64,000 bases of DNA from an uncultured Gammaproteobacteria bacterium (GTDB lineage: Bacteria > Patescibacteriota > Patescibacteriia > Magasanikbacterales > GWA2-37-8), in the NCBI GenBank assembly GCA_964407865.1, contig CAYOXC010000002.1:120646-184645 (forward strand), written 5' to 3'. The translations under genes were made by a program, and so were the position numbers. The notes under the pieces were generated by a model that did no database searches, was not told the origin of the DNA, and saw only the letters and a list, made by a program, of their open reading frames with translations. This document shows, in pieces, positions 1 to 44,254 of the stretch (its first letter is position 1; each line of letters opens with the position of its first letter).

Positions 1-45
1 GAATAAGAACAAAATCGCTCCTTGAAAAAAGAAAGGAGTATTACA

Positions 46-2118
46 ATGAAACAAGGAGGTCCGGTAATGGACAAAATTGAATTGGGAGGAAAGTCGAAAG
101 TTGATCTGTTGGTTCGATATTTGACGAATTTGCCGGGGCCGCTTACTTCCGAAGAGCTGCATCTGATGCGTGGGGCAATAGGTACGGAAGGATGCGCCAG
201 GCTTCATGTTGCGTCGCAAAATGCGGAGAACGTGGGGCGGACGACTGTTCGCTTTTCTTCGATCCCGGGTGATGTTGACGAAGTGTTTCCTAATATTCTT
301 GAAGATCGCGCGGAAGTAACAAGTATCGCAGGTTTTATATTGGGCATGAAGAAGAGCGGTGCTGACTGGGTAATTCTGGAGTCGTTTATTGAGGAGTACT
401 TCGCCAATGGCGGACAGGCAAATTCTCAACTAGTTGAGGATGACACGACCGACAATCAGACCGATGAGAACAGTGAAAAGGAAATCGAATTGAACCCTGA
501 AGATTGTGTTCCGGTGAAAGATGATAATGACGTTGAAACGAGAAAGGAAGTTGAAGAGGGGGTTGAAAAGTTGAACGAACTTTGTCTCGAACTAGAACAA
601 ATCAGATCAATTGTCGCTAGCCACGAACTGGAGTTGAAGCAAGTCAATGACAATCTCGGTTTTCTCACTGAAGCCAAAAAAAATGCGCTTTTTGCCAAAG
701 AAGAGCTAGGGCGCGAGGTTGACGAGCTTACGCATGAAATTATCGAAATCAGAAAGAGTTCTGCCGAACTAAAATCAGAAGTTGCCAAACGCAAAGAAGA
801 GGCGCACGACATTGAACTCGACGCCTTGAACACAGAGCAGGCAGCAGCTGAAAAAATGGCCGAATGCAAGGCTCGCCTTCAGGCAGCTGAGGAGTTGAAC
901 GCGCAAGCTGATCTCTTCCTTAACAAGGCCGAACAACTTGAGGCTGATGCGGCAGAGAAAATGCAGGAGGCTGAGGCGCGAATCGCGACTGCCACGACCG
1001 AGATGGCTGAATTAGAAGCTCACGAAAGAAAGCAGAGCAATGAATCGCTGGCGCTTGTTGCGAAAATGGACGAAATCGGCATTAGCCAGGAGCTTAGAGA
1101 AAAACTGAAGCCTGAAGTGGATGAGGCTGTTCGTTACCAGGCGGCAATTTACACGCTTTCACTGATCAAAGTGAGCGCTGAAAAATTGGCCGGACAAGTT
1201 CGTGACGAGGTGGTAGACCTAGCGGCTGAATGTCGTGTTCTCGGCGAAAGGCGAACCGGGCTCGATGAACAAATTGCCGAGCTATCATCGTCGTGTGATT
1301 CGTTGACAGAAAATGTGCGTGAACTCACGGATCTTCGCAGTAGCCTGAGCGAGGAGATATCTTCGCTTGAAAATGATATTGCTGAAATGGAAAAAAATTT
1401 GGATCAGGCTCGTCAGGAATCGCGGGCAATCAATTCAAATTATCACGATACTCTGGCCAAATACCGCGAAGCCATTGAGGATAAAAATCGGCAGATGGCT
1501 GAGGCTGAGGCTGATTTTCTACGACAGCAGGCAATTCAGCAAGATAAGATCAGCAAGTTTGAGCAAATGACAGCCAGTGTTATCTCCGAGGCGCAGACCA
1601 ATCTGCAAAAAGCCTCAAAAAGCTGTGCTGATCGAGTAGCGGAGCTTGAAGCGCAAGCAGTTAGGGCCAAAGAAAAGGCAGACAGTGAGTCTGCCAGGCT
1701 GAAGCTCATAATCACAGAAGCGGAGACGGCTTTAGACGAAATGCGAGTTAACGCCGAAAACCGCGTCAGAGAGACGCATAATAAGGCGGCTGCTCTAGTT
1801 AACGTGGTTCAAGAAGTTCAGGCGGAAAACCTCTCCAGCTTGCAGGCAAAATTGGAAGAGATGGAGCAGTTCGACAGATTTTTTGATATAGTGATGGTTT
1901 CACTCAAGGAAGCAAAATCCAAAGTTCAGCGTGTTTACGAAGAAAGCGAAGGCTTGAACAAAACCTACCAGTCACTATTTGCCATTCGGATGAAAGAAGC
2001 CGAAGAAATCGACGTTAAAATGAGCCAAGCGTTGGCATTGGTAGAGCAGATTTGCGCTGAACCAATTGTCCAAAAAGACGATGATGCGGCGAAAGAAGAT
2101 CTTAAAAATACCAAGTAA
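46..2118 (+). CDS. Large coiled-coil protein: N-terminal ~130-aa globular domain followed by a ~550-aa Ala/Glu/Lys/Leu-rich coiled coil. Hypothetical.
   Basis: The ORF track gives 22..2118 with a TTG start. In-frame ATGs at 46 and 67 are each preceded by a GGAG/AGGAGG Shine-Dalgarno sequence. The sequence is heptad-like and E/A/K-rich over most of its length. GC is visibly higher than in neighbouring genes. A terminator hairpin follows at 2136-2168. Confidence 0.55.
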   Translation: MKQGGPVMDKIELGGKSKVDLLVRYLTNLPGPLTSEELHLMRGAIGTEGCARLHVASQNAENVGRTTVRFSSIPGDVDEVFPNILEDRAEVTSIAGFILGMKKSGADWVILESFIEEYFANGGQANSQLVEDDTTDNQTDENSEKEIELNPEDCVPVKDDNDVETRKEVEEGVEKLNELCLELEQIRSIVASHELELKQVNDNLGFLTEAKKNALFAKEELGREVDELTHEIIEIRKSSAELKSEVAKRKEEAHDIELDALNTEQAAAEKMAECKARLQAAEELNAQADLFLNKAEQLEADAAEKMQEAEARIATATTEMAELEAHERKQSNESLALVAKMDEIGISQELREKLKPEVDEAVRYQAAIYTLSLIKVSAEKLAGQVRDEVVDLAAECRVLGERRTGLDEQIAELSSSCDSLTENVRELTDLRSSLSEEISSLENDIAEMEKNLDQARQESRAINSNYHDTLAKYREAIEDKNRQMAEAEADFLRQQAIQQDKISKFEQMTASVISEAQTNLQKASKSCADRVAELEAQAVRAKEKADSESARLKLIITEAETALDEMRVNAENRVRETHNKAAALVNVVQEVQAENLSSLQAKLEEMEQFDRFFDIVMVSLKEAKSKVQRVYEESEGLNKTYQSLFAIRMKEAEEIDVKMSQALALVEQICAEPIVQKDDDAAKEDLKNTK

Positions 2119-36071: not shown

Positions 36072-37415
36072 TTAAGTATGCTTGATAATATCTTGAATAT
36101 TTTTTATATCTAAAATTTTTAAATTTTTTACAGATATAGCCGAATGTTTTTTGCCAAGATTGGCCAGGGCGCGTTTGAGTCCGAGTTGTTCGCATTCTTT
36201 GAGGCGCCTTTCAGTTTGCGAAACTGGTCGAATTTCGCCAGACAAGCCAACTTCGCCAAAGGCAGCCATATCATTACCCAAAGCCTTGTCTTTGTAGGCA
36301 CTGGCAATAGCGAGTGCTACAGCTAAATCCGCGGCTGGCTCATCAGCTGTAAGTCCGCCGACAATGTTTAGGTGGACATCATATTGTTCCAAACGCAAGC
36401 CGGCTCTTTTTTGCAACACGGCAATTAAAACATGGAGTCGGTTAAGATCGAATCCGCTTGCTTTGCGCACGGGATAGCCGAATGAAGTTTTGTTAACTAA
36501 AGCCTGAACTTCAACTAGAATTGGCCTGGTACCCTCCATCAGGCAGGCAACAACATTGCCTGGAGCATTTTCCGCTCGCTCGTTTAAAAAGGCGGCTGAA
36601 GGATTTTTTACTTCTTCTAATCCGGTTTCTTCCATAGCAAATACACCAACTTCATCTGTTGAGCCAAAACGATTTTTTGCCGCGCGTAAAATTCTAAATT
36701 GGTGGAAACGATCGCCTTCAAGATAGAGGACTGTATCCACTAAATGCTCGAGCGCTTTTGGACCGGCTACTGTGCCTTCTTTTGTAACTTGTCCGATTAG
36801 TACTATGGTAAGGCGTTCGGCTTTTGAAAGTTCCATTAGTTTTACGGTGCAGGTACGAACTTGCGATAGGTTGCCCGCTTCACCTGTTGCTTCATCTGAG
36901 TAAACAGTTTGGACTGAATCAATTATAGTTAAAGCAGGTTTTTCTTTTTTTATAGTGGCAATAATTGTATCAATATTTGATTCGTTAGCTACTTTTAAAT
37001 TTTTGACTGTTATTTTTAGCCGATCAGAACGCATCTTTATTTGTTCGGTTGATTCTTCACCGGAAATATAAAGAGTATTAGGGAGAATTGATGCTAGCTG
37101 AAGTGCCAGGGTTGATTTACCTATTCCCGGTTCACCGCCAAGAAGAATGAGAGAGCCGGGCACGAGTCCGCCGCCGAGCACGCGGTCAAATTCGCCAATA
37201 TTGGTTCTTGTTCGCGTTACGTTTTCGCTTTTTATATCTGATAAATTCGATAATTTTGTTGGCGCGTATTCGTTGGGTTCGTTTTGCTCCTTGCTAATTG
37301 TTTTTTGTTCTTTATCTATCGTGCCCCAGTGTCCACATTCTAAACAACGCCCAACCCACTTTTGAAATTGTGCTCCACAGTTGTTACAGGAGAAAATTAT
37401 TGAGTTATGTTTCAT
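36072..37415 (-). CDS. radA: DNA repair protein RadA/Sms
   Basis: N-terminal C4 zinc finger CNNCG...CLECG. RecA-like GGEPGIGKST. Lon-like C-terminal domain. Confidence 0.92.
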   Translation of the reverse strand: MKHNSIIFSCNNCGAQFQKWVGRCLECGHWGTIDKEQKTISKEQNEPNEYAPTKLSNLSDIKSENVTRTRTNIGEFDRVLGGGLVPGSLILLGGEPGIGKSTLALQLASILPNTLYISGEESTEQIKMRSDRLKITVKNLKVANESNIDTIIATIKKEKPALTIIDSVQTVYSDEATGEAGNLSQVRTCTVKLMELSKAERLTIVLIGQVTKEGTVAGPKALEHLVDTVLYLEGDRFHQFRILRAAKNRFGSTDEVGVFAMEETGLEEVKNPSAAFLNERAENAPGNVVACLMEGTRPILVEVQALVNKTSFGYPVRKASGFDLNRLHVLIAVLQKRAGLRLEQYDVHLNIVGGLTADEPAADLAVALAIASAYKDKALGNDMAAFGEVGLSGEIRPVSQTERRLKECEQLGLKRALANLGKKHSAISVKNLKILDIKNIQDIIKHT

Positions 37416-37429
37416 ATCAAAAAGCGTTT

Positions 37430-37447
37430 ACCCCGCCATATGGCGGG
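37430..37447 (-). terminator. Hairpin ccccgccat atggcgggg, likely the terminator of the upstream minus-strand operon
   Basis: Perfect 8-bp stem. On the minus strand a T-run follows. Confidence 0.45.
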
Positions 37448-37554
37448 GCCGCAGTTGTTGCAACTAAATACTATGGTATTGTTTTTCATAATCAGAAGTG
37501 TTTGTCTAGCCTTTTTGGCGGAGTTGTAATTATTATTTACAAATAAAGAAATTT

Positions 37555-38943
37555 TTAGGGTCTGGTTACTTCTATTAACGCAGCTGGATTAGGACATGTG
37601 CTTAAAATACAAATAGATCCTTGACTTACTGTCTTGCCGTAAGATCCTTGAATAACCTGTGCCTTACCACCAGAGCCCCAACCAACAAACAAGGCAGCAT
37701 GAGTGCCTCTGAGACTAGAATTACCGTTATAGACAATAATATAGTCACCAGGTTGCAGTGCGTTTGCCCAGGCATCTGGCCAACTACTACCTAATTTTGC
37801 TTTGTAATAATCGTAAACCATTTTTTTTGCCATAGCATTATCACTAGCGCAAGAGGATGCAGGTGTTTGGGATGAACATTTTACATTTTGAAGATATTTT
37901 CTGTCAGCTTGGGGGACGCTGTTAACAACTCGTCCTTTTGTCCAACAACCCTTATTTTCAGAAAGACAATCTTTTGAACCAATACCGGCTAGTGTATAGA
38001 TAGTGCCAGCCGTTCTACCACAAGCTCCAAAGTTTACACCGCACTTAACAGCCGCATCTGCGATTTTAATAATTTTTAGTTGTAAAGTATCTTCACCTGT
38101 CACCAGAGACTCGGCCTTGTCATAAAAAGATAAGCTTCTGGGATCTTTCTCTGGTTGTCCAGCAGTTGCATTACCTGACAGTTGTAGGGGACATTCAGTA
38201 TATTGAGGTTGAAAACTACCTGACACAGGTTCGCCGATTCCTTCACTGGTGTTTGCTAAAGTTGTTTGAAGTTCTATATGCAATGGAGATTCTGGAATGA
38301 ATTGAATTTTAAGCGAACGGAAAGTGGTTAAATTTGGATTGATAGTATAAAGCACAACATATGAGCCCCAGGCAATTAGAAGGCCGATTACAGCCTGAGT
38401 AATTCTTTTGTAACCTTGTTGTTTTGTTGGACCGCCGGCTGAAGTTATAATTACGGCTCCTTGAATAATAATAACTACTACGGCTACTATGCTGATTGTA
38501 GCCACAGCAAAATTATAAACCGCTTTTATGTATTCACCAAACCATGGAATGTAAATATTACCCTCTTCATCAACTTCAGTTGGCGGTGCTGAAAAATGAA
38601 GTGATGGAATTGTTACGCCAAGTACAACATCTTTAAATACAAAATCTTCTTCAATCTTTGTCATTGTTTTGGTGCCACAATCTTTGTCTTCGACTATGTT
38701 GCACCCAACATTTCTGCCAAAAGTGCTAAGTTCATCTTGCTTTGCCACACATTGTTCTGAAACAATTAGTTCAGCAAAAATTTCTTTTGTTGTGATAACT
38801 TCCGGTCCAGCGCCGCCTGCATATGTTTTAGTAATTGAACATACACAGCAAGATTTGTATTCAGCTGCCTCAGCAAAATTTACAAAACAAAAAAAATTCA
38901 GCGTAATGACTAATGATAAAATTATGGCTGAAATTTTTTTCAT
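37555..38943 (-). CDS. Secreted/membrane protein: signal peptide, Cys-rich domain, pilin-like double-TM hairpin, C-terminal NlpC/P60- or CHAP-like peptidase domain
   Basis: The N-terminus is hydrophobic. Two TM helices (AVYNFAVATISIVAVVVIII... and AVIGLLIAWGSYVVLY) are separated by a short basic loop. The C-terminus has PGDYIIV...THAALFVGW, with cysteines upstream. Confidence 0.5.
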   Translation of the reverse strand: MKKISAIILSLVITLNFFCFVNFAEAAEYKSCCVCSITKTYAGGAGPEVITTKEIFAELIVSEQCVAKQDELSTFGRNVGCNIVEDKDCGTKTMTKIEEDFVFKDVVLGVTIPSLHFSAPPTEVDEEGNIYIPWFGEYIKAVYNFAVATISIVAVVVIIIQGAVIITSAGGPTKQQGYKRITQAVIGLLIAWGSYVVLYTINPNLTTFRSLKIQFIPESPLHIELQTTLANTSEGIGEPVSGSFQPQYTECPLQLSGNATAGQPEKDPRSLSFYDKAESLVTGEDTLQLKIIKIADAAVKCGVNFGACGRTAGTIYTLAGIGSKDCLSENKGCWTKGRVVNSVPQADRKYLQNVKCSSQTPASSCASDNAMAKKMVYDYYKAKLGSSWPDAWANALQPGDYIIVYNGNSSLRGTHAALFVGWGSGGKAQVIQGSYGKTVSQGSICILSTCPNPAALIEVTRP

Positions 38944-38947
38944 AGCC

Positions 38948-39613
38948 TTAGTACTCTTTTATCAATTCAGAAAGCAAATCATTGACGTTAATCTCTTCCA
39001 GATAGTTTACCCGCATGTTATTAACAAAAATTATTGGTGCCTTTTTTAGTCCGATTGATTTTGCCAGTGAAACAGCCGAATCAACACGCGTTTTTGCTTC
39101 CGTAGAATTTAAACACGACTGCCAGGCATCTTTTTGCAAACTGATTTTTTCGGCAATACTAGACAAGGTTTCATTATCAGTTTTTTTACCGCTAATTTTT
39201 ACAAGTTCGTTTGCGTAGTCAGTAAATTTATTTTGTTTTTTAGCGCAAAAAGCGGCAATGTGAGGTTTTATGTCATCCTCAGCAAACAATCCTGTTGCCG
39301 GGAAATCCTTGAAGACCATTCTAATTTTTGTTGGATTGTTCTCAATAAAATCATCTAGTGTTTGAAAAAGGCGGCGACTGTTAGAGTCGTTAAAGTCAAT
39401 AAAGGCTGTTATAGTCATTGGAGCGCCTTGATTGCCAATAATTGGATCCATCGGATCAATTGGAATTTGCGTTGCTGAATTTTCAATTAGCGGCCGCTCA
39501 GATCGTTTGATAGTAATTTTTTCCGCGACAGATAATTGATAAACCAAAAATAACAAACAAACAATAATTGCTAATATCAATATAATAAAAAATTGGCGAT
39601 TTATGTTTTTCAT
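38948..39613 (-). CDS. Membrane-anchored thioredoxin/DsbA-like protein lacking the CxxC active site
   Basis: N-terminal TM helix. DsbA-like ITAFIDFNDSNS sits where F-D-x-x-C-P-x-C is expected, and no Cys pair is present. Confidence 0.5.
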   Translation of the reverse strand: MKNINRQFFIILILAIIVCLLFLVYQLSVAEKITIKRSERPLIENSATQIPIDPMDPIIGNQGAPMTITAFIDFNDSNSRRLFQTLDDFIENNPTKIRMVFKDFPATGLFAEDDIKPHIAAFCAKKQNKFTDYANELVKISGKKTDNETLSSIAEKISLQKDAWQSCLNSTEAKTRVDSAVSLAKSIGLKKAPIIFVNNMRVNYLEEINVNDLLSELIKEY

Positions 39614-40842
39614 ATTGATAAGTTTATCTCAAAAACACCAGATTGCGTCGTGTCGCTAAATAGCAATCTGTTGTTTGTTTCATCATACGATATATTTTTC
39701 ATTGAAAAATCTCCGCCAGTATTAATAGTTGTTTTGAGTCCGGTTTTTAGGTCAATTTTATAGAGATCATCAGTAGTGCCAGCGGCAATTTCTGGTTTAA
39801 GAGCTGCGCCTTGTGGCAAGTTGCGCGGTACGGCGCAATAAAGCGTTGAATCGCCGGCAAATGTGCATTTATCCGGCCAAGTGTTTAATTCTAGGTTGCG
39901 GCGGTTTGAGCCGATTTCATTACCATATGAGTTAGTCACCCAGATTTCCGGTTTAAGGTCACTACGCTGGGAATAGACGCTATACATTAGCTGATTTCCT
40001 GTTGGCGACCATTTGGGAGTAAAACCAAGCCCTTCCACAACCAATGATTTAAAATTTTCATGATTAAGACCGACAAGCAAAACTTCTTTGCGATAGAGCC
40101 CCAGCGGTTTTCCGGTAAAGGAAAAGGCGACAGTTTGGCGGCTGGGTGACCAATCAATCAGTACTTTGTCTTGGTTTTCACCCATTGGCTCGATTAGTTG
40201 AGTTCCAGTTCCATCATCACTGACGGTGAGCAACCAGCGGTTTTCAGGCGAGAGGCCAATTGATTTGGCGGCAATTTCAGTGCTGTCTGGTGAAAAAGAA
40301 AATTCTTCCCAGTGTTTTGGTAGGGTTACTTGTTTTTGAGTTTCAAAATTATAAATAATTTTTGATTGATCCGGATATTCGAGAACTGCCTTATCGGCTG
40401 TTTTCGCCCAAGTTACATTTGAAACATTATAAAAAACAGAATCACTCATGGCTTTGGTCGTTCCGTCGGGCATAACTTGATAAAATTTGCCATCACTTTG
40501 ATTGTAATACCTAAGAGCGCCAGTAGAATTAACTGAAGAATACACCGTCGGTTCCGCAGTAACCTGCCTAACAGCTTCAGGGCGATAATAGCTTGGCTCA
40601 ACACCGGGGATGTATCCGGCCTGCGGTAGGGTTGGTACACCGGGAACGCCTGGTGCGGTCGTGGCCACCCGCTCTCCAGCTGGTGGCAGAGCGCCGGGTA
40701 GGGTAGGTGTAGCCGTGGGTGGTGTTGGTACTTCTGCTACTGGCACTGCTTTTCTAAAAAAATAATATAAAGCCAGGGCTAAAAGAGCTGTGACTATAAA
40801 AAGTCCGATAATTAACAAAATTCTTTTAAGTCTATCTGACAT
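39610..40842 (-). CDS. Membrane-anchored beta-propeller protein (TolB/PD40-like repeats) with a Pro-rich linker
   Basis: N-terminal TM helix and a PTPPTATPTLPGALPP linker. Repeats include SPDSTEIA, WSPSRQTVAF and WSPTGNQLMY. Confidence 0.55.
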   Translation of the reverse strand: MSDRLKRILLIIGLFIVTALLALALYYFFRKAVPVAEVPTPPTATPTLPGALPPAGERVATTAPGVPGVPTLPQAGYIPGVEPSYYRPEAVRQVTAEPTVYSSVNSTGALRYYNQSDGKFYQVMPDGTTKAMSDSVFYNVSNVTWAKTADKAVLEYPDQSKIIYNFETQKQVTLPKHWEEFSFSPDSTEIAAKSIGLSPENRWLLTVSDDGTGTQLIEPMGENQDKVLIDWSPSRQTVAFSFTGKPLGLYRKEVLLVGLNHENFKSLVVEGLGFTPKWSPTGNQLMYSVYSQRSDLKPEIWVTNSYGNEIGSNRRNLELNTWPDKCTFAGDSTLYCAVPRNLPQGAALKPEIAAGTTDDLYKIDLKTGLKTTINTGGDFSMKNISYDETNNRLLFSDTTQSGVFEINLSI

Positions 40843-40846
40843 AGAA

Positions 40847-41665
40847 TTATGCAGTTATATTTACGCTAACTTGGTTGATTTTTTTATTTATATTTTGCAA
40901 CTCTCTTTTCATTGGTTGAATTTGTCTGTCTCTTTCTCGAGATAATGCTTGTTTTTGGATTCGGAGTTTTTGTTTGAGTTCCATGGTTTTCAATGAAGGA
41001 CGGCCTAAATTAAAACCGCAAAGCCAAAGGATAAAACAGCCAATAATTAAAAGAATCATGAGCAAGGGAATTACTATTGTATACCAAAGAGTTCCAGCAA
41101 TACCGCCTAATACTTTAATAATTTTAATGAGATTTACTGTCCTATCTTTTATTTTCGATGCTTTTAATGCTCTTTCAGCCGGTTTAAGTTTGCTTTGGGT
41201 TGTGATACTAGCGTTTCGTATTTGCCTATTTAGAGTCAGGCTGCGTGTGCGCAGTAGTCTGATTTGCTTTTCGGCAGCTTCTGCCCGGCGTGCTGTTTCG
41301 GCTTGATAAGCCATTTCTTCTTGCGTACCTCCAGCTGTTTTTTGTTCTGGCGCAGACCCTTCTCCAGCCTCTTCTTCAGAGTACCCTTCTTCGCCCTCTT
41401 CAGATATTTCTTCTTCTGTCGGAGGGGTTTCAGTTGGCCGGCCGTATTCCTGTTCGATCAGGACCGCTTCTTTTTCTGCCAGTGTCGGAATTTTAGTCCG
41501 CGCGCCCATTTCTTCTTGTTCCATTTGTCTTCTTTTAGCTGCCCGTGCTTTTGTTAGTTCAGTCGCGTTTTTCTGTTCTAATAATTGCGCAGGCGTCATT
41601 TCTTCGCCTTGATATAATTCTTCAGGATTAACTCCCTGGTTTTTTTGTTCTCCTGTTGCCGGCAT
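40847..41665 (-). CDS. Glu-rich coiled-coil protein with a single C-proximal TM helix, hypothetical
   Basis: Acidic N-terminus. TM helix LGGIAGTLWYTIVIPLLMILLIIGCFILWL. Confidence 0.45.
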   Translation of the reverse strand: MPATGEQKNQGVNPEELYQGEEMTPAQLLEQKNATELTKARAAKRRQMEQEEMGARTKIPTLAEKEAVLIEQEYGRPTETPPTEEEISEEGEEGYSEEEAGEGSAPEQKTAGGTQEEMAYQAETARRAEAAEKQIRLLRTRSLTLNRQIRNASITTQSKLKPAERALKASKIKDRTVNLIKIIKVLGGIAGTLWYTIVIPLLMILLIIGCFILWLCGFNLGRPSLKTMELKQKLRIQKQALSRERDRQIQPMKRELQNINKKINQVSVNITA

Positions 41666-41668
41666 AAA

Positions 41669-44182
41669 TTATTTTAGGCTCAATTTTTGAGCATTTGTTT
41701 CCAAGGAATATGTTTTTTTCAGCATGCCACCTAGAATAATATTAGCAATATTATTTTCAACTTCAGAGCGAATTTTTTGTCTGATGTCACGTGCGTTACT
41801 GTTTTTTTCTCCTAGGCCGGCAAGTAGTTTTTCCAAATCTTTTCTATTAACTGTTATTTTTGTTGAATATTTTTTCAGTCGATTATTCAATGATTCTATT
41901 TCAAGAATGGCAATTTTTGCTAAATCTTCTGCTGACAATTCTCGAAAACAGCATATTCGATCAAGGCGGTTAATAAGTTCAGGAGAGAAGCGGTCTTTCA
42001 GTTTTTCTTTTAGACGTTCCTGGTCTTCTTTTATAGTTTCTGAAACATGGTTGAACCCAAAAGCGCCTTTTTTCAGCTCGTCAGCTCCAAAAGACGTGGT
42101 TAATATTATTATAGCATGTTTTAGGGAAATTTTCTTGCCAGTTGCATCTGTAATTTCACCTTCTTCAAGGATTTGCAAAAGCAGTTTAAGAATATCTGGG
42201 TGCGCTTTGTCTATTTCATCAAAAAGTACTACTGAATATGGTTGAAGCTTCAATTTGTCAGTAAATTGGTTTGCTTCTTTGTAACCAACATAACCCGCTG
42301 GAGAGCCCAATAGTTTTGAGGCGCCGAATGATTCGCCAAATTCCGACATGTCCAATTTAATCAAGGCATCTTGCCCGGGGTAGAGAACTCGAGATAGAGA
42401 TTTGGCTAACTCGGTTTTTCCTACGCCTGAGGGCCCGACATACAAAAGCGATGCAGTCGGCCTCATCGGATCAGAGAGGCCTAATTCGGCTTGTCTGATA
42501 AGCGCAACAGTGTCGTTTATAGGATCTTCTTGTCCAATAACTAATTTTTTAAGTCGAGCGGTAATTTTGTTGAATCTATTTTCATTGCCGGCAATAATTT
42601 CTGATGGTTCTCTGCCGATAATTTTTGCCACTTGATTTACAATGTCTTCGGTTTGAACAGTGCCAAATATCTTTTCTTTTACGTTTTCAAGATCGTGTTC
42701 AACTTTTTGTATTTTATCAAAAATTGTTTTTTCTTCTTCTTTCATTTTTAAAGCTTCGCCAAAACGATCTCCTAAAGCTGCTTCTTCTTTTTTTGAACCG
42801 ATTTCTCGAAGCTGTTGACGCAGATAAGAAAGCTCATCTTCTTCCGGACTGGTTTTTGAGCTTAGGCGTTTTGCAGCTGCTGTTTCGTCGAGTAGGTCAA
42901 TTGCCTTGTCAGGTAAAAATTTTCCAGAAATATAACGAGCAGACATTTCTACTGCCGCTTTGATCGCCTGGTCTTCAATTTTAACATGGTGGTATGTTTC
43001 ATAATTCTTTTTGATGCCGCGCAGAATTTTAACAGCTTCGTTGACTGTTGGCTCTCGAACAAATATTGGCATTAGACGCCTCTCCAGAGCGGCATCACTT
43101 TCTATAAATTTTTTAAACTCAGCCGGAGTTGTTGAACCAATGCAGTGAATTGATCCGCGGGCAAGCGCTGGTTTTAATAAATTTGCAGCATCCATTGAAC
43201 CCTGTGACGATCCAGCGCCGACAATATTATGAATTTCGTCAATGAAAATTATAATATTTGGATCTCTCGATGCGTCTTCAATCAGTTCTTTAAGCCGAGC
43301 TTCGAATTCACCGCGGTAAATTGTTCCGGCGACTAGCATGCCGAGATCAACAGAATATATTTTTTTATTACGAAGCATGTCTGGTATTTGGCCCTCAATA
43401 ATTTTTTTAGCCAAACCTTCAACAATAGCTGTTTTGCCAACGCCTGGATCGCCCAGTAGGACAGGGTTGTTTTTTGTTCGCCGAGATAAAATTTGTATCA
43501 AGCGCTCAATTTCATTGTCCCGACCAATAACCGGATCAATATTTTTTTGATTTTTTCTTTCAGTCAGATCGACGGCAAAATACTCAAGAGCGGATTCTTG
43601 TTTTTTACCCCTAGTTTTTCTTTGACTGCCAATTGGTACGCCTGCAGAGCCAAGCATATTGTCTTGTATTTGTTCTGCGGCTTCAGCCACTTCGTTTATA
43701 TTAGGAAATTGGGCAGCATTGGAAAAAATTGAATCTATTTCTTTTTTTATTTCATCAGGATTAAATTTTGAAATTTTGAAAAATTCATTTAATTTTGGAT
43801 CTTCGATTTCAAGCAGAGCACCGAGCAAATGTTCGCTGCCAAGGTAGTTATGTCCATTTTTTTGAGCGATAATCAAGGCTTTTTCCAAAACCAGTTTAGA
43901 TTGTGGTGAGAGTGGTGGAAGTTGAAGTTCGGTTGAAATTTTTTGATTATCAGTTTTTTCCATTTCAGAAGACATTGGTAGAGTCAGAAGCATTTGTTCA
44001 ATAATTTTGATATCTGGTTTAGAGCGGTTGATTAGCTCCGATGCGACAGAACCTTTTTCGTTCATGGCAGCATAAAAAAGATGCAATGGTTCAATTGAAC
44101 GATTTTTAAGTTCGTTTGCCGATTGCATGGCGCGGGCCAAAATTTCTTTAAGATGTGTGGAAAAACGGTCAAGAATATTCAT
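41669..44182 (-). CDS. Clp/Hsp100 AAA+ chaperone ATPase (ClpB/ClpC family)
   Basis: Clp_N repeats. Two Walker A sites, GDPGVGKT and GPSGVGKT. 837 aa. Confidence 0.85.
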
Positions 44183-44254
44183 ATTTCTTGTGCTTTATTA
44201 TCTGTCATTATATAATGTAAAGGTTGTTTAGTCAAAATAGTTTTTTATCTAAAT

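What the first reader, a model, noticed from the sequence alone, without database searches (positions are those of the whole stretch)
37555..38943. Protein combining a VirB2/TrbC-pilin-like double-TM hairpin with an NlpC/P60-like peptidase
Residues ~150-205 form two hydrophobic helices joined by a short basic loop (PTKQQGYKRITQ), which is the architecture of conjugative pilin subunits. The C-terminal 120 aa carry the PGD-hhh...H-hh-hG signature of NlpC/P60 or CHAP cysteine peptidases, with Cys candidates upstream. The N-terminal 120 aa are Cys-rich (8 Cys). This is an unusual fusion for a cell-wall hydrolase.
Basis: partly seen in the sequence, partly recalled or inferred. Interest (0 to 1): 0.5.

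Follow-up and report, generated by a model that had tools for sequence, protein, structure and literature searches.

The report
Pilin-anchored cell-wall peptidase of Patescibacteria
This gene encodes a membrane protein of an ultrasmall (Patescibacteria) bacterium in which a type IV secretion pilin-like helical hairpin carries a new kind of cell-wall-cutting cysteine peptidase on the outside of the cell, and related species swap that enzyme for a dozen other wall-degrading domains at the same chromosomal spot.

Summary
ORF 37555-38943 (-), 462 aa, consists of:
- a cleavable signal peptide;
- a small Cys-rich N-domain;
- two long hydrophobic helices joined by a basic loop, homologous to Pfam T4SS_pilin (PF18895);
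- a flexible linker;
- a 220-aa C-domain with no Pfam or PDB sequence match.

New findings:
- The gene sits in a fixed operon-like slot, clpC-X-Y-dsbA-[gene]-radA, in every Magasanikbacteria locus long enough to show it (41 species-representative genomes scanned).
- The pilin core tracks species phylogeny. The C-terminal domain is exchanged among at least 12 classes in that slot, and every class that Pfam can name (six) is a peptidoglycan hydrolase.
- Distant relatives (pilin + SLT) and homologs of the neighbouring β-propeller gene Y lie inside VirB4 type IV secretion clusters.

Most likely it is a membrane-tethered, possibly pilus-associated, wall peptidase doing a VirB1-type job. The link to secretion is inferred, because no VirB4 lies in this window. 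I rate it a new variant of a known kind.

The parts
37555..38943 (-). Whole ORF, 462 aa plus stop: pilin-anchored NlpC/P60-like hydrolase.
   Evidence: ORF list. A 100% identical database protein and 77 homologs. Full-length model with pLDDT 83.9.
38866..38943 (-). Signal peptide, res 1-26 (MKKISAIILSLVITLNFFCFVNFAEA, A-x-A before the predicted cleavage site).
   Evidence: Hydropathy peak at res 10-18. Helix 2-19 followed by a low-confidence segment 22-29 in the model. The cleavage site is inferred from the AEA motif.
38647..38865 (-). Variable Cys-rich N-terminal ectodomain, res 27-99 (CCVC motif, 6 Cys).
   Evidence: Cys positions. A small alpha/beta unit (strands 31-41, 48-56, 78-85; helix 62-73) with pLDDT about 71-88. 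Poorly conserved, and duplicated in some homologs.
38299..38646 (-). Conserved pilin core, res 100-215. It contains the pre-helix motif IPSLHFSAPP..EGNIYIPWFGEYIKAVYNF, two hydrophobic helices, a basic loop, and the YTINPNL motif.
   Evidence: Alignment A3: 62% mean column identity and 12 invariant positions. PF18895 hits in 49/78 homologs. Own PF18895 hit covers res 137-192. NCBIfam 'Mbov_0395 family pilin-like conjugal transfer protein' at E 0.003.
38443..38544 (-). Helix 1 of the hairpin, res 134-167 (crosses the membrane from outside to inside).
   Evidence: DSSP on the model. Hydropathy up to 2.76.
38395..38439 (-). Basic loop AGGPTKQQGYKRITQ, res 169-183, predicted cytoplasmic (K174, K179, R180).
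   Evidence: Sequence. Sidedness is inferred from the positive-inside rule and the signal peptide.
38341..38394 (-). Hydrophobic part of helix 2, res 184-201 (crosses the membrane from inside to outside).
   Evidence: Model helix 172-201. Hydropathy.
38212..38298 (-). Flexible linker, res 216-244. Homology to proteins with other catalytic domains ends here.
   Evidence: pLDDT about 60. Tails after the core cluster into non-homologous classes.
37558..38211 (-). C-terminal disulfide-rich NlpC/P60-CHAP-like domain, res 245-462.
38020..38022 (-). Codon of Cys308, the predicted nucleophile (motif G-[AS]-C-G-R-T-A-G).
   Evidence: First residue of helix 308-318. Cys in 155/155 aligned members. It is the odd Cys among the 9 in this domain.
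37699..37701 (-). Codon of His415, the predicted general base.
   Evidence: Start of strand 414-423. His in 157/157 aligned members. Aligned by hhalign to the His of the PF00877-bearing P0077.
37648..37650 (-). Codon of Gln432, the candidate third polar residue.
   Evidence: Lies on the next strand, 427-434. Family counts at this position: Q 90, N 20, E 19, S 10, D 6. Geometry was not checked.
38948..39613 (-). DsbA-like thioredoxin gene, 4 nt upstream of the target. Probably oxidises the 14 ectodomain Cys.
   Evidence: Pfam Thioredoxin_4 at 1.7e-12 and DSBA at 1.2e-6. Present in this position in every locus long enough to show it. The role is inferred.
39610..40842 (-). Gene Y, 410 aa: membrane-anchored protein, probably a beta-propeller. 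It is a conserved partner of the pilin gene.
   Evidence: Conserved in all loci. Full-length homologs directly follow the pilin genes in the VirB4 clusters L048 and L050 (E 4e-16 and 5.5e-18). Weak TolB-propeller signals.
40847..41665 (-). Gene X, 272 aa: acidic coiled-coil protein with one TM segment. It fills a variable slot between clpC and Y.
   Evidence: Translation. No Pfam match. A gene of 108-341 aa occupies this slot in related loci.

Best explanation
The gene encodes an exported membrane protein built from three modules.

1. After Sec export and signal-peptide cleavage, a small disulfide-bonded N-domain lies outside the cell.
2. A helical hairpin of the Patescibacteria type IV secretion pilin family (PF18895) spans the membrane, with its short basic loop in the cytoplasm.
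3. A roughly 30-residue flexible linker then holds a C-terminal domain outside the cell.

The C-terminal domain is a previously unclassified, disulfide-rich branch of the NlpC/P60-CHAP papain-like hydrolases. Its predicted catalytic residues are Cys308, His415 and Gln432. I expect it to cut peptide stems or cross-links of peptidoglycan.

The adjacent DsbA-like gene probably forms its disulfides: 6 Cys in the N-domain, and 8 of the 9 Cys in the C-domain, which leaves Cys308 free.

The protein most likely does the wall-opening job that VirB1-type hydrolases do for type IV secretion systems. Here that job is fused directly to the VirB2-like pilin. The protein could work from the membrane or after incorporation into a pilus-like structure, together with the conserved beta-propeller partner Y.

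Status of each step:
- Shown: the architecture, the fold, the invariant Cys/His, the synteny, the domain swapping, and the presence of relatives and of Y homologs in VirB4 clusters.
- Inferred: topology, disulfides, substrate, the link to secretion in this organism, and whether the target wall is its own or a host's.
For: Architecture:
- Signal peptide, two hydrophobic helices and a basic loop.
- Hairpin helices 134-167 and 172-201 at pLDDT 86-92.

Pilin family:
- PF18895 in 49/78 homologs.
- The core matches pilins beside VirB4 in L048 and L050.
- NCBIfam pilin-like conjugal transfer protein at E 0.003.

Hydrolase fold:
- C-domain model pLDDT 90.9.
- Foldseek's best hits, though not significant, are largely the same families.
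- hhalign aligns LQPGD...H415 with the NlpC/P60 domain of P0077 (E 4.6e-4).

Active site:
- Cys308 sits at a helix N-terminus, His415 and Gln432 on consecutive strands.
- Cys is 155/155 and His 157/157 conserved.

Wall-hydrolase role by context:
- Six of the other tail classes found in the slot match Pfam peptidoglycan-hydrolase families: VanY/M15, M15_4, SLT, C39_2 and Amidase_2 (twice). M23 and NlpC/P60 appear among the wider homologs. Six classes have no Pfam match or were not scanned.

Link to type IV secretion:
- P0075 (pilin core + SLT) is the only recognisable hydrolase inside a PrgI/TraC-like/VirB4 cluster.
- Homologs of Y follow the pilins in two VirB4 clusters.
- Magasanikbacteria (class ABY1) genomes are listed as VirB4-positive, including the genome of locus L011 (PMC12102498 Table S1).
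- That paper also reports that most genomes with VirB2 lack a recognisable VirB1.

Operon:
- Gaps of 3, 4, -4 and 4 nt from clpC to the target.
- The best promoter-like site lies upstream of clpC.
- The gene order is the same in every locus long enough to show it, across 41 species-representative genomes.
Against: - No VirB4, VirB6 or coupling protein lies in the 64-kb window, which is otherwise housekeeping, nor within 10 kb in any related Magasanikbacteria locus.
- The protein's own PF18895 score is below Pfam's cut-off.
- There is no hit to TrbC/VirB2 PF04956.
- There is no sequence or Foldseek match to solved conjugative pilins. A helical hairpin is a generic shape.
- The mature protein (about 436 aa) is far larger than classical pilins, so a homopolymeric pilus made of it looks sterically unlikely (inference).
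- The C-domain has no significant sequence match to PF00877 or CHAP, and Foldseek E-values are >=0.1.
- No enzymatic data exist.
Confidence: 0.55

Rival explanations
1. It is a housekeeping autolysin that does not depend on type IV secretion. The pilin-derived hairpin is only a membrane anchor, perhaps docking to X and Y. The enzyme remodels or splits the cell's own wall during growth and division. Any wall-cleaving domain can do that job, which would explain the replacements.
For: - It is the only core-bearing gene in the 64-kb window.
- It sits in a fixed core-genome operon with clpC, dsbA and radA in every locus long enough to show it, across 41 species-representative genomes.
- No T4SS ATPase lies nearby.
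- No adjacent immunity gene exists; radA follows directly.
- From general knowledge, different bacteria use non-homologous hydrolases for cell separation.
Against: - The core is homologous to pilins encoded beside VirB4.
- The partner gene Y is also a T4SS-cluster gene elsewhere.
- The very strong conservation of the hairpin and its pre-helix motif exceeds what a passive anchor needs.
- The closest species differ in domain class, a turnover rate unusual for a division enzyme.
Confidence: 0.25
2. It is a host-directed weapon: an 'armed pilin'. The pilin module is extracted from the membrane and incorporated, probably as a minor or tip subunit, into a T4SS pilus. The swappable hydrolase is thereby presented to the wall of the host bacterium on which the epibiont lives. 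The catalytic domain is exchanged to match host wall chemistry.
For: - A conserved delivery-type N-terminal module carries at least 12 non-homologous C-terminal classes in the slot (13 counting one gene outside it), and every class Pfam can name is a wall hydrolase.
- The five closest species carry four different classes, while the core and flanking genes stay 66-82% identical.
- One to three tandem copies occur in some genomes.
- T4SS and its pilin array are essential for epibiotic growth in a cultivated Saccharibacterium (PMC10633639; PMC12857230).
Against: - There is no evidence that any PF18895 protein polymerises.
- The large ectodomains on both termini argue against dense packing (inference).
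- No immunity gene is adjacent, although the producer has its own wall.
- The lifestyle and host of Magasanikbacteria are unknown.
Confidence: 0.15
3. It is a prophage-derived lysis cassette: a holin-like hairpin fused to an endolysin.
Against: - No PHROG family matches (best E 0.22).
- The neighbourhood is purely housekeeping and syntenic across 41 species-representative genomes.
- The protein has a signal peptide and an N-terminal ectodomain.
- The hairpin belongs to PF18895.
Confidence: 0.02
4. The C-domain is a catalytically dead binding module that recognises the wall or a protein and merely has a papain-like fold.
For: There is no sequence match to active families. An 80-residue insert separates Cys308 from His415.
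Against: Cys308, His415 and the GD motif are strictly conserved in about 155 diverse members, which is not expected for a dead enzyme. The equivalent slot in relatives holds domains with intact hydrolase family signatures.
Confidence: 0.03

Closest known systems
VirB2-like T4SS pilins of Patescibacteria (Pfam PF18895 T4SS_pilin; described in Wang et al. 2023, PMC10633639, and Quinonero-Coronel et al. 2025, PMC12102498)
   Same: Both have a signal peptide, two long hydrophobic helices and a short basic loop, plus the conserved ...TSAGG/N...K..I..A.IGL.I...SY.I...INP.L motif. Relatives are encoded beside VirB4.
   Different: This protein carries a 73-aa N-domain and a 250-aa enzymatic C-terminal extension. 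It is encoded far from any VirB4, in a clpC-radA operon. Its own HMM score is below threshold. Neither paper's text that I read mentions hydrolase fusions.
Classical conjugative pilins: VirB2, TrbC and TraA (PF04956 and relatives)
   Same: The topology and helical-hairpin architecture match. By general knowledge, a membrane pool of these pilins exists before extraction.
   Different: There is no detectable sequence or Foldseek similarity. Classical mature pilins are 64-80 aa with no appended domains. They come from diderm systems.
VirB1-type wall hydrolases of Gram-positive T4SS (PrgK, TraG of pIP501, CwlT, TcpG, Tn916 Orf14-like proteins such as PDB 4hpe and 9ubf)
   Different: They are anchored by a single TM segment or a lipobox, not by a pilin hairpin. 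They are encoded inside the transfer cluster. Their catalytic domains match Pfam models, whereas this one does not.
NlpC/P60 and CHAP peptidoglycan hydrolases (for example T. vaginalis NlpC1 6bim, C. difficile Acd24020 7cfl, CwlO 8wt3, LytE 8i2f, Ly7917 5d74)
   Same: The papain-like fold is shared, with Cys at a helix N-terminus and His plus a polar residue on consecutive strands.
   Different: Identity is 11-24%. There is no HMM match. About 80 residues are inserted between the catalytic helix and the sheet, and there are four predicted disulfides. The family is of modest size (219 clusters at 50% identity) and about 84% of the newly found representatives are fused to the pilin core.
'Evolved' VgrG/PAAR spikes and other polymorphic effectors (for example VgrG3 with a wall-hydrolase domain). 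This comparison rests on my own knowledge.
   Same: A structural subunit of a secretion apparatus carries a swappable C-terminal enzymatic domain.
   Different: The apparatus is different. No cognate immunity gene is adjacent here. Delivery was not shown.

Membership tests
NlpC/P60-CHAP superfamily (papain-like wall hydrolases) | Papain-like alpha+beta fold | tested here: met
NlpC/P60-CHAP superfamily (papain-like wall hydrolases) | Conserved nucleophilic Cys at the N-terminus of a helix | tested here: met
   Cys308 is the first residue of helix 308-318. It is Cys in 155/155 aligned members.
NlpC/P60-CHAP superfamily (papain-like wall hydrolases) | Conserved His on a beta-strand after the Cys, followed by a third polar residue on the next strand | tested here: met
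   His415 is conserved 157/157. Position 432 is Q/N/E/S/D. The two lie on strands 414-423 and 427-434. Three-dimensional distances were not measured.
NlpC/P60-CHAP superfamily (papain-like wall hydrolases) | Match to the family HMMs (PF00877 NLPC_P60 or PF05257 CHAP) | tested here: not met
   No hit at E<=10. There is no PDB sequence hit even with a profile. The only signal is a weak hhalign match to a PF00877-bearing relative (E 4.6e-4, probability 33%).
NlpC/P60-CHAP superfamily (papain-like wall hydrolases) | Cleavage of peptidoglycan peptide bonds | not testable with these tools
   This needs biochemistry.
T4SS_pilin PF18895 (VirB2-like pilins of Patescibacteria and monoderms) | Score above Pfam's gathering threshold | tested here: not met
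   15.1 bits against a 26.6-bit cut-off, E 0.025, res 137-192.
T4SS_pilin PF18895 (VirB2-like pilins of Patescibacteria and monoderms) | Homology to bona fide members | tested here: met
   49/78 homologs hit PF18895 at E<=1e-3, best 5e-9. The core matches pilins in VirB4 clusters at E 3e-14 and 4e-10.
T4SS_pilin PF18895 (VirB2-like pilins of Patescibacteria and monoderms) | Signal peptide plus two hydrophobic helices joined by a short basic loop | tested here: met
T4SS_pilin PF18895 (VirB2-like pilins of Patescibacteria and monoderms) | Encoded in or near a VirB4 cluster | tested here: not met
   No VirB4 lies in the window or within 10 kb in related Magasanikbacteria loci. The feature is met for the distant relatives P0075 and P0078. 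The lineage does possess VirB4.
T4SS_pilin PF18895 (VirB2-like pilins of Patescibacteria and monoderms) | Polymerises into a pilus | not testable with these tools
   To my knowledge no structural data exist for any PF18895 protein.
Classical TrbC/VirB2 (PF04956) | HMM match, or similarity to solved conjugative pilins | tested here: not met
   No PF04956 hit in any of the 78 members. The core profile against PDB returned only noise. Foldseek with the full model found no pilin.
VirB1-type T4SS wall hydrolase | Wall-hydrolase domain on a membrane-associated protein of a T4SS gene cluster | tested here: inconclusive
   The hydrolase fold and membrane anchoring are met. Cluster membership is not met here but is met for the relative P0075.
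Polymorphic toxin/effector | Conserved N-terminal module with variable C-terminal domains | tested here: met
   13 tail classes sit on a core of 44-75% identity, and the closest species differ in class.
Polymorphic toxin/effector | Cognate immunity gene immediately downstream | tested here: not met
   Where a downstream gene is resolved, it is radA or another pilin-hydrolase paralog.

The most novel reading that the evidence does not exclude
Patescibacterial VirB2-like pilins are modular carriers. The conserved hairpin is a polymerising, or T4SS-docked, subunit. Its exchangeable C-terminal wall hydrolase is displayed on a conjugative-type pilus of a monoderm to breach the wall of the host bacterium. 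This would make an 'armed pilus' whose enzyme is swapped as a host-range determinant. The beta-propeller Y would be a so far unrecognised T4SS component.
Probability: 0.15. Interest if true: 0.85.

Novelty: new variant of a known kind. Interest (0 to 1): 0.6.

Why it matters
Type IV secretion and its unusual pilin arrays are essential for the epibiotic life of the only genetically tractable Patescibacteria (PMC10633639). It is unknown what these pilins do, or how the machine passes a Gram-positive-type wall. A recent survey noted that most genomes with VirB2-like pilins lack a VirB1 hydrolase (PMC12102498).

Pilin-hydrolase fusions offer a concrete, testable answer to that gap:
- They are present throughout a whole lineage.
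- Their catalytic domains are interchangeable.
- Relatives sit inside VirB4 clusters.

The finding also defines two further things:
- a new NlpC/P60-like family of about 200 clusters that current domain libraries miss;
- an unannotated beta-propeller gene that travels with the pilins.

If the hydrolase is directed at hosts, the swappable domain would be a candidate host-range determinant for uncultured ultrasmall bacteria.

Tried and rejected
Searches that found nothing useful:
- Pfam, NCBIfam and PDB sequence searches of the whole protein, and a 19-sequence profile of the C-domain, gave nothing for the C-domain.
- The pilin-core profile against PDB sequences returned only GPCR and transporter noise.
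- Foldseek with the full-length model returned no conjugative pilin, only generic hairpins such as ATP synthase subunit c. Fold comparison therefore cannot confirm or refute the VirB2 link.
- hhalign of the C-domain against P0017's unclassified tail showed no relationship.
- The first attempt to scan genomes with the 78-sequence alignment failed because the alignment was too diverse. A tighter core alignment worked.
- PHROGs returned no phage family, so I rejected the lysis-cassette idea.
- Searching for VirB4, PrgI or VirB6-like genes in the window and in 46 loci, using the L048 proteins as queries, found none.
- I tested whether P0070 and P0073 are pilin-Y fusions. They are not.
- Searches of the held paper library for pilin-hydrolase fusions (PF18895; T4SS_pilin; VirB2-like plus cell wall hydrolase) returned only the two T4SS papers (one of them also held as a preprint) and one unrelated structure-clustering preprint. 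The two T4SS papers' text that I read does not describe the fusion.

Full report
**1. What is there**

The finding's coordinates match a single minus-strand ORF, 37555..38943, of 462 aa. An identical protein exists in NCBI and Logan data, and 77 homologs were found, so it is a genuine gene.

Direct reading and hydropathy give this layout:
- a signal-type N-terminus (res 1-26, ending AEA|A);
- a Cys-rich segment (C32, 33, 35, 65, 81, 89);
- a conserved stretch IPSLHFSAPPTEVDEEGNIYIPWFGEYIKAVYNF;
- a very hydrophobic helix;
- the loop AGGPTKQQGYKRITQ;
- a second hydrophobic helix ending in YTINPNL;
- a linker;
- a C-terminal 220 residues containing QPGDYIIVYNGNSSLRGTHAALFVGWG.

There are 7 Cys in the first 120 residues, one of them in the signal peptide.

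**2. The hairpin**

A full-length AlphaFold model (36-row alignment, mean pLDDT 83.9) predicts helices 134-167 and 172-201 as a hairpin at pLDDT 86-92. A small alpha/beta N-domain (res 31-85) precedes it, and a low-confidence linker (about res 205-245) follows it.

The topology follows from three features: the cleavable signal peptide, the three basic residues in the loop, and the many Cys in both flanking domains. Together they indicate N-domain outside, loop inside and C-domain outside. This is inferred, not measured.

Evidence on family membership:
- Pfam gives only a sub-threshold hit to T4SS_pilin PF18895 (E 0.025, 15.1 bits against a 26.6-bit cut-off).
- NCBIfam gives a pilin-like conjugal transfer protein at E 0.003.
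- 49 of the 78 homologs hit PF18895 at E<=1e-3 (best 5e-9).
- The core aligns with 62% mean column identity across proteins whose C-termini are unrelated.

No link to classical TrbC/VirB2 (PF04956) or to solved conjugative pilins could be shown. A helical hairpin is too generic for fold search to decide the question.

**3. The C-terminal domain**

Sequence methods find nothing. A model from a 19-sequence alignment is confident (pLDDT 90.9, pTM 0.89).

- Foldseek's non-significant top hits are largely the same families.
- Cys308 is the first residue of a helix. His415 and Gln432 lie on two consecutive strands. This is the canonical arrangement.
- A profile search of 1.84 billion representative proteins finds 219 clusters (185 at E<=1e-10).
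- In 167 aligned members, Cys308 is present in 155/155 and His415 in 157/157. The GD motif is essentially invariant. Position 432 is Q/N/E/S/D.
- The domain has 9 Cys. Eight form four plausible local pairs (251/301, 326/333, 356/365, 445/450), which leaves Cys308 unpaired. The pairing is inferred.
- hhalign aligns LQPGD...H415 with the His motif of a PF00877-bearing relative (E 4.6e-4).

I conclude that this is a new, disulfide-rich family within the NlpC/P60-CHAP superfamily. It has an insert of about 80 residues between the catalytic helix and the sheet.

**4. Genomic context**

The window is housekeeping throughout. It holds EF-Tu, SecY, Adk, Map, RecO, ParAB, RelA, TopA, DprA, Der, LytR, RecG, RadA, ClpC, PGM, HtpX-like M48, LemA, RseP, PheST and DnaE. 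There is no T4SS ATPase and only one pilin-core gene.

On the minus strand the order is clpC, X (272 aa, acidic coiled coil plus one TM), Y (410 aa, TM plus probable beta-propeller), a DsbA-like gene, the target, then radA.

- Gaps from clpC to the target are 3, 4, -4 and 4 nt.
- The best promoter-like site of the region lies just upstream of clpC.
- The same order was seen at five looked-up homolog loci.
- The same order was seen in every locus long enough to show it among the 41 loci found in one-genome-per-species GTDB contigs. Nearly all are titled Magasanikbacteria or Patescibacteria, or are evident mislabels.
- Some genomes have two or three tandem pilin-hydrolase genes in the slot.

**5. 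Modularity**

The sequences after the core fall into 13 unrelated classes. Pfam assigns six of them:

| Class | Pfam assignment | Members |
|---|---|---|
| 0 | none; the NlpC/P60-like domain of this window | 12 |
| 1 | VanY / Peptidase_M15 | 8 |
| 2 | SLT | 6 |
| 3 | Peptidase_C39_2 | 6 |
| 4, 5, 7, 9 | no Pfam match | 5, 5, 2, 2 |
| 6 | Amidase_2 | 3 |
| 8 | Peptidase_M15_4 | 2 |
| 10 | Amidase_2 | 2 |
| 11, 12 | singletons, not scanned | 1, 1 |

Class 12 lies outside the slot, on the opposite strand of L020. M23 and canonical NlpC/P60 also appear among the wider homologs. Several of the unassigned tails carry lysozyme-like or Cys/His motifs by eye. Every domain that can be named is a peptidoglycan hydrolase.

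The five species closest to this one have RadA at 75-82% and core at 66-75% identity. They carry four different classes (9, 4, 7, 4, 8). This window's class 0 recurs only in more distant genomes, with RadA at 53-64% identity. So the hairpin module is inherited vertically, while the catalytic domain is replaced at or near the linker. Differential loss from tandem arrays with homogenised cores is an alternative route to the same pattern.

Of the 137 further representatives carrying the class-0 domain, 115 have the pilin core upstream. The rest are short fragments or signal-peptide-only versions.

**6. Link to type IV secretion**

- A distant family member, P0075 (345 aa, pilin core + SLT), lies inside an origin-proximal cluster. 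The cluster holds PrgI (VirB3-like), a TraC-like protein, a 610-aa VirB4, a second PF18895 pilin, and then a 381-aa gene.
- That last gene is a near-full-length homolog of this window's Y (E 4e-16).
- A second VirB4 locus (L050) shows the same order of pilins followed by Y (E 5.5e-18).
- The pair 'pilin(+hydrolase) plus Y' is thus conserved both in VirB4 clusters and in the Magasanikbacteria clpC-radA operon.
- Magasanikbacteria are class ABY1 and are listed as VirB4-positive, including the very genome of locus L011 (PMC12102498 Table S1).
- That paper reports VirB2-like pilins in 1,948 assemblies, and says that most genomes with VirB2 lack VirB1. It notes that other hydrolases might substitute. 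The passages I read do not mention fusions.
- Wang et al. 2023 and a 2025 review stress that the pilin array is essential, and unexpected in a monoderm.

**7. Mechanism and its rivals**

My preferred reading (confidence 0.55) is a pilin-family membrane protein whose external NlpC/P60-like domain, oxidised by the neighbouring DsbA, cuts peptidoglycan peptides. It would supply the VirB1-type wall-opening function for the lineage's T4SS or pilus apparatus, together with Y.

The rivals are:
- A secretion-independent housekeeping autolysin (0.25). The core-genome operon and the absence of nearby T4SS genes favour it. The homology of both the core and Y to T4SS-cluster genes argues against it.
- A host-directed 'armed pilin' (0.15). 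The polymorphic-effector-like domain turnover favours it. The lack of an immunity gene, and of any evidence for polymerisation, argues against it.
- A phage lysis cassette (0.02). No PHROG hit and the core synteny argue against it.
- A dead binding domain (0.03). The invariant Cys/His argues against it.

These differ mainly in which wall is cut and whether the protein leaves the membrane. None of that can be settled computationally here.

**8. Novelty and verdict**

The parts are known kinds: a PF18895 pilin module and a papain-like wall hydrolase. Three things are not described in the literature I could search:
- the lineage-wide fusion with interchangeable hydrolase domains at a fixed locus;
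- the unclassified NlpC/P60-like family;
- the co-travelling beta-propeller gene.

I rate it a new variant of a known kind, with interest 0.6.

Noticed in passing
window 39610-40842 (-); L048 12044-13189; L050 4724-5950: Gene Y (410 aa) has an N-terminal TM segment, a Pro-rich linker and a probable PD40/TolB-like beta-propeller. It has no Pfam family. It is conserved next to dsbA in every Magasanikbacteria locus long enough to show it, and it has full-length homologs immediately after the pilin genes of two VirB4 clusters. It may be an unrecognised T4SS-associated component.
   Followed up: partly
window 40847-41665 (-): Gene X (272 aa) has an acidic, Glu-rich N-terminus, coiled coils and a single TM segment. 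Its sequence is poorly conserved, but a gene of 108-341 aa always occupies this slot between clpC and Y.
   Followed up: partly
window 36072-44235 (-): clpC and radA are neighbours in the Firmicutes ctsR-mcsAB-clpC-radA operon (my own knowledge). Here four envelope genes (X, Y, dsbA, pilin-hydrolase) are inserted between them with gaps of 3, 4, -4 and 4 nt. The best sigma70-like match of the region lies upstream of clpC at 44235-44207.
   Followed up: partly
window 37416-37554 (- strand reading): The 139-nt gap between the target and radA ends with a GC-rich hairpin, CCCCGCC-ATAT-GGCGGGG, followed a few bases later by a T-run, right before the radA ATG. It could be a terminator or attenuator for the upstream operon. 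The consensus scan did not call it.
   Followed up: no
window 22-2118 (+): A 698-aa ORF encodes a long, Glu/Ala/Lys-rich coiled-coil protein with no Pfam match. It sits in a stretch with 47% GC, against about 38% in the surroundings.
   Followed up: no
L051 625-2064 (P0070); L052 3063-4442 (P0073): These proteins have the same pilin core but a C-terminal domain of about 330 aa that is neither a recognisable hydrolase nor Y-like. They are the last gene of origin-proximal loci next to R3H/yidC/rnpA/dnaA. PF18895 'pilins' of Patescibacteria therefore often carry large ectodomains of several kinds.
   Followed up: partly
L012, L013, L018, L020, L024, L028-L031, L033, L034, L038-L040, L044 (record titles): Many GTDB species-representative MAGs titled 'uncultured Gammaproteobacteria bacterium' (TPA_asm) carry the complete Magasanikbacteria-type synteny and pilin-hydrolase genes. 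Their organism labels are probably wrong.
   Followed up: no
L020 18444-19892 (-): This is a third pilin-core gene in one genome. It lies outside the conserved slot and on the opposite strand, and its 295-aa C-terminal domain has no relatives in the set (class 12).
   Followed up: no
window 38948-39613 (-): The DsbA-like protein's best NCBIfam match is the Rcas_1661 family thioredoxin-like (seleno)lipoprotein (E 6e-10, far below the cut-off). It has an N-terminal TM or signal segment rather than an obvious lipobox.
   Followed up: no
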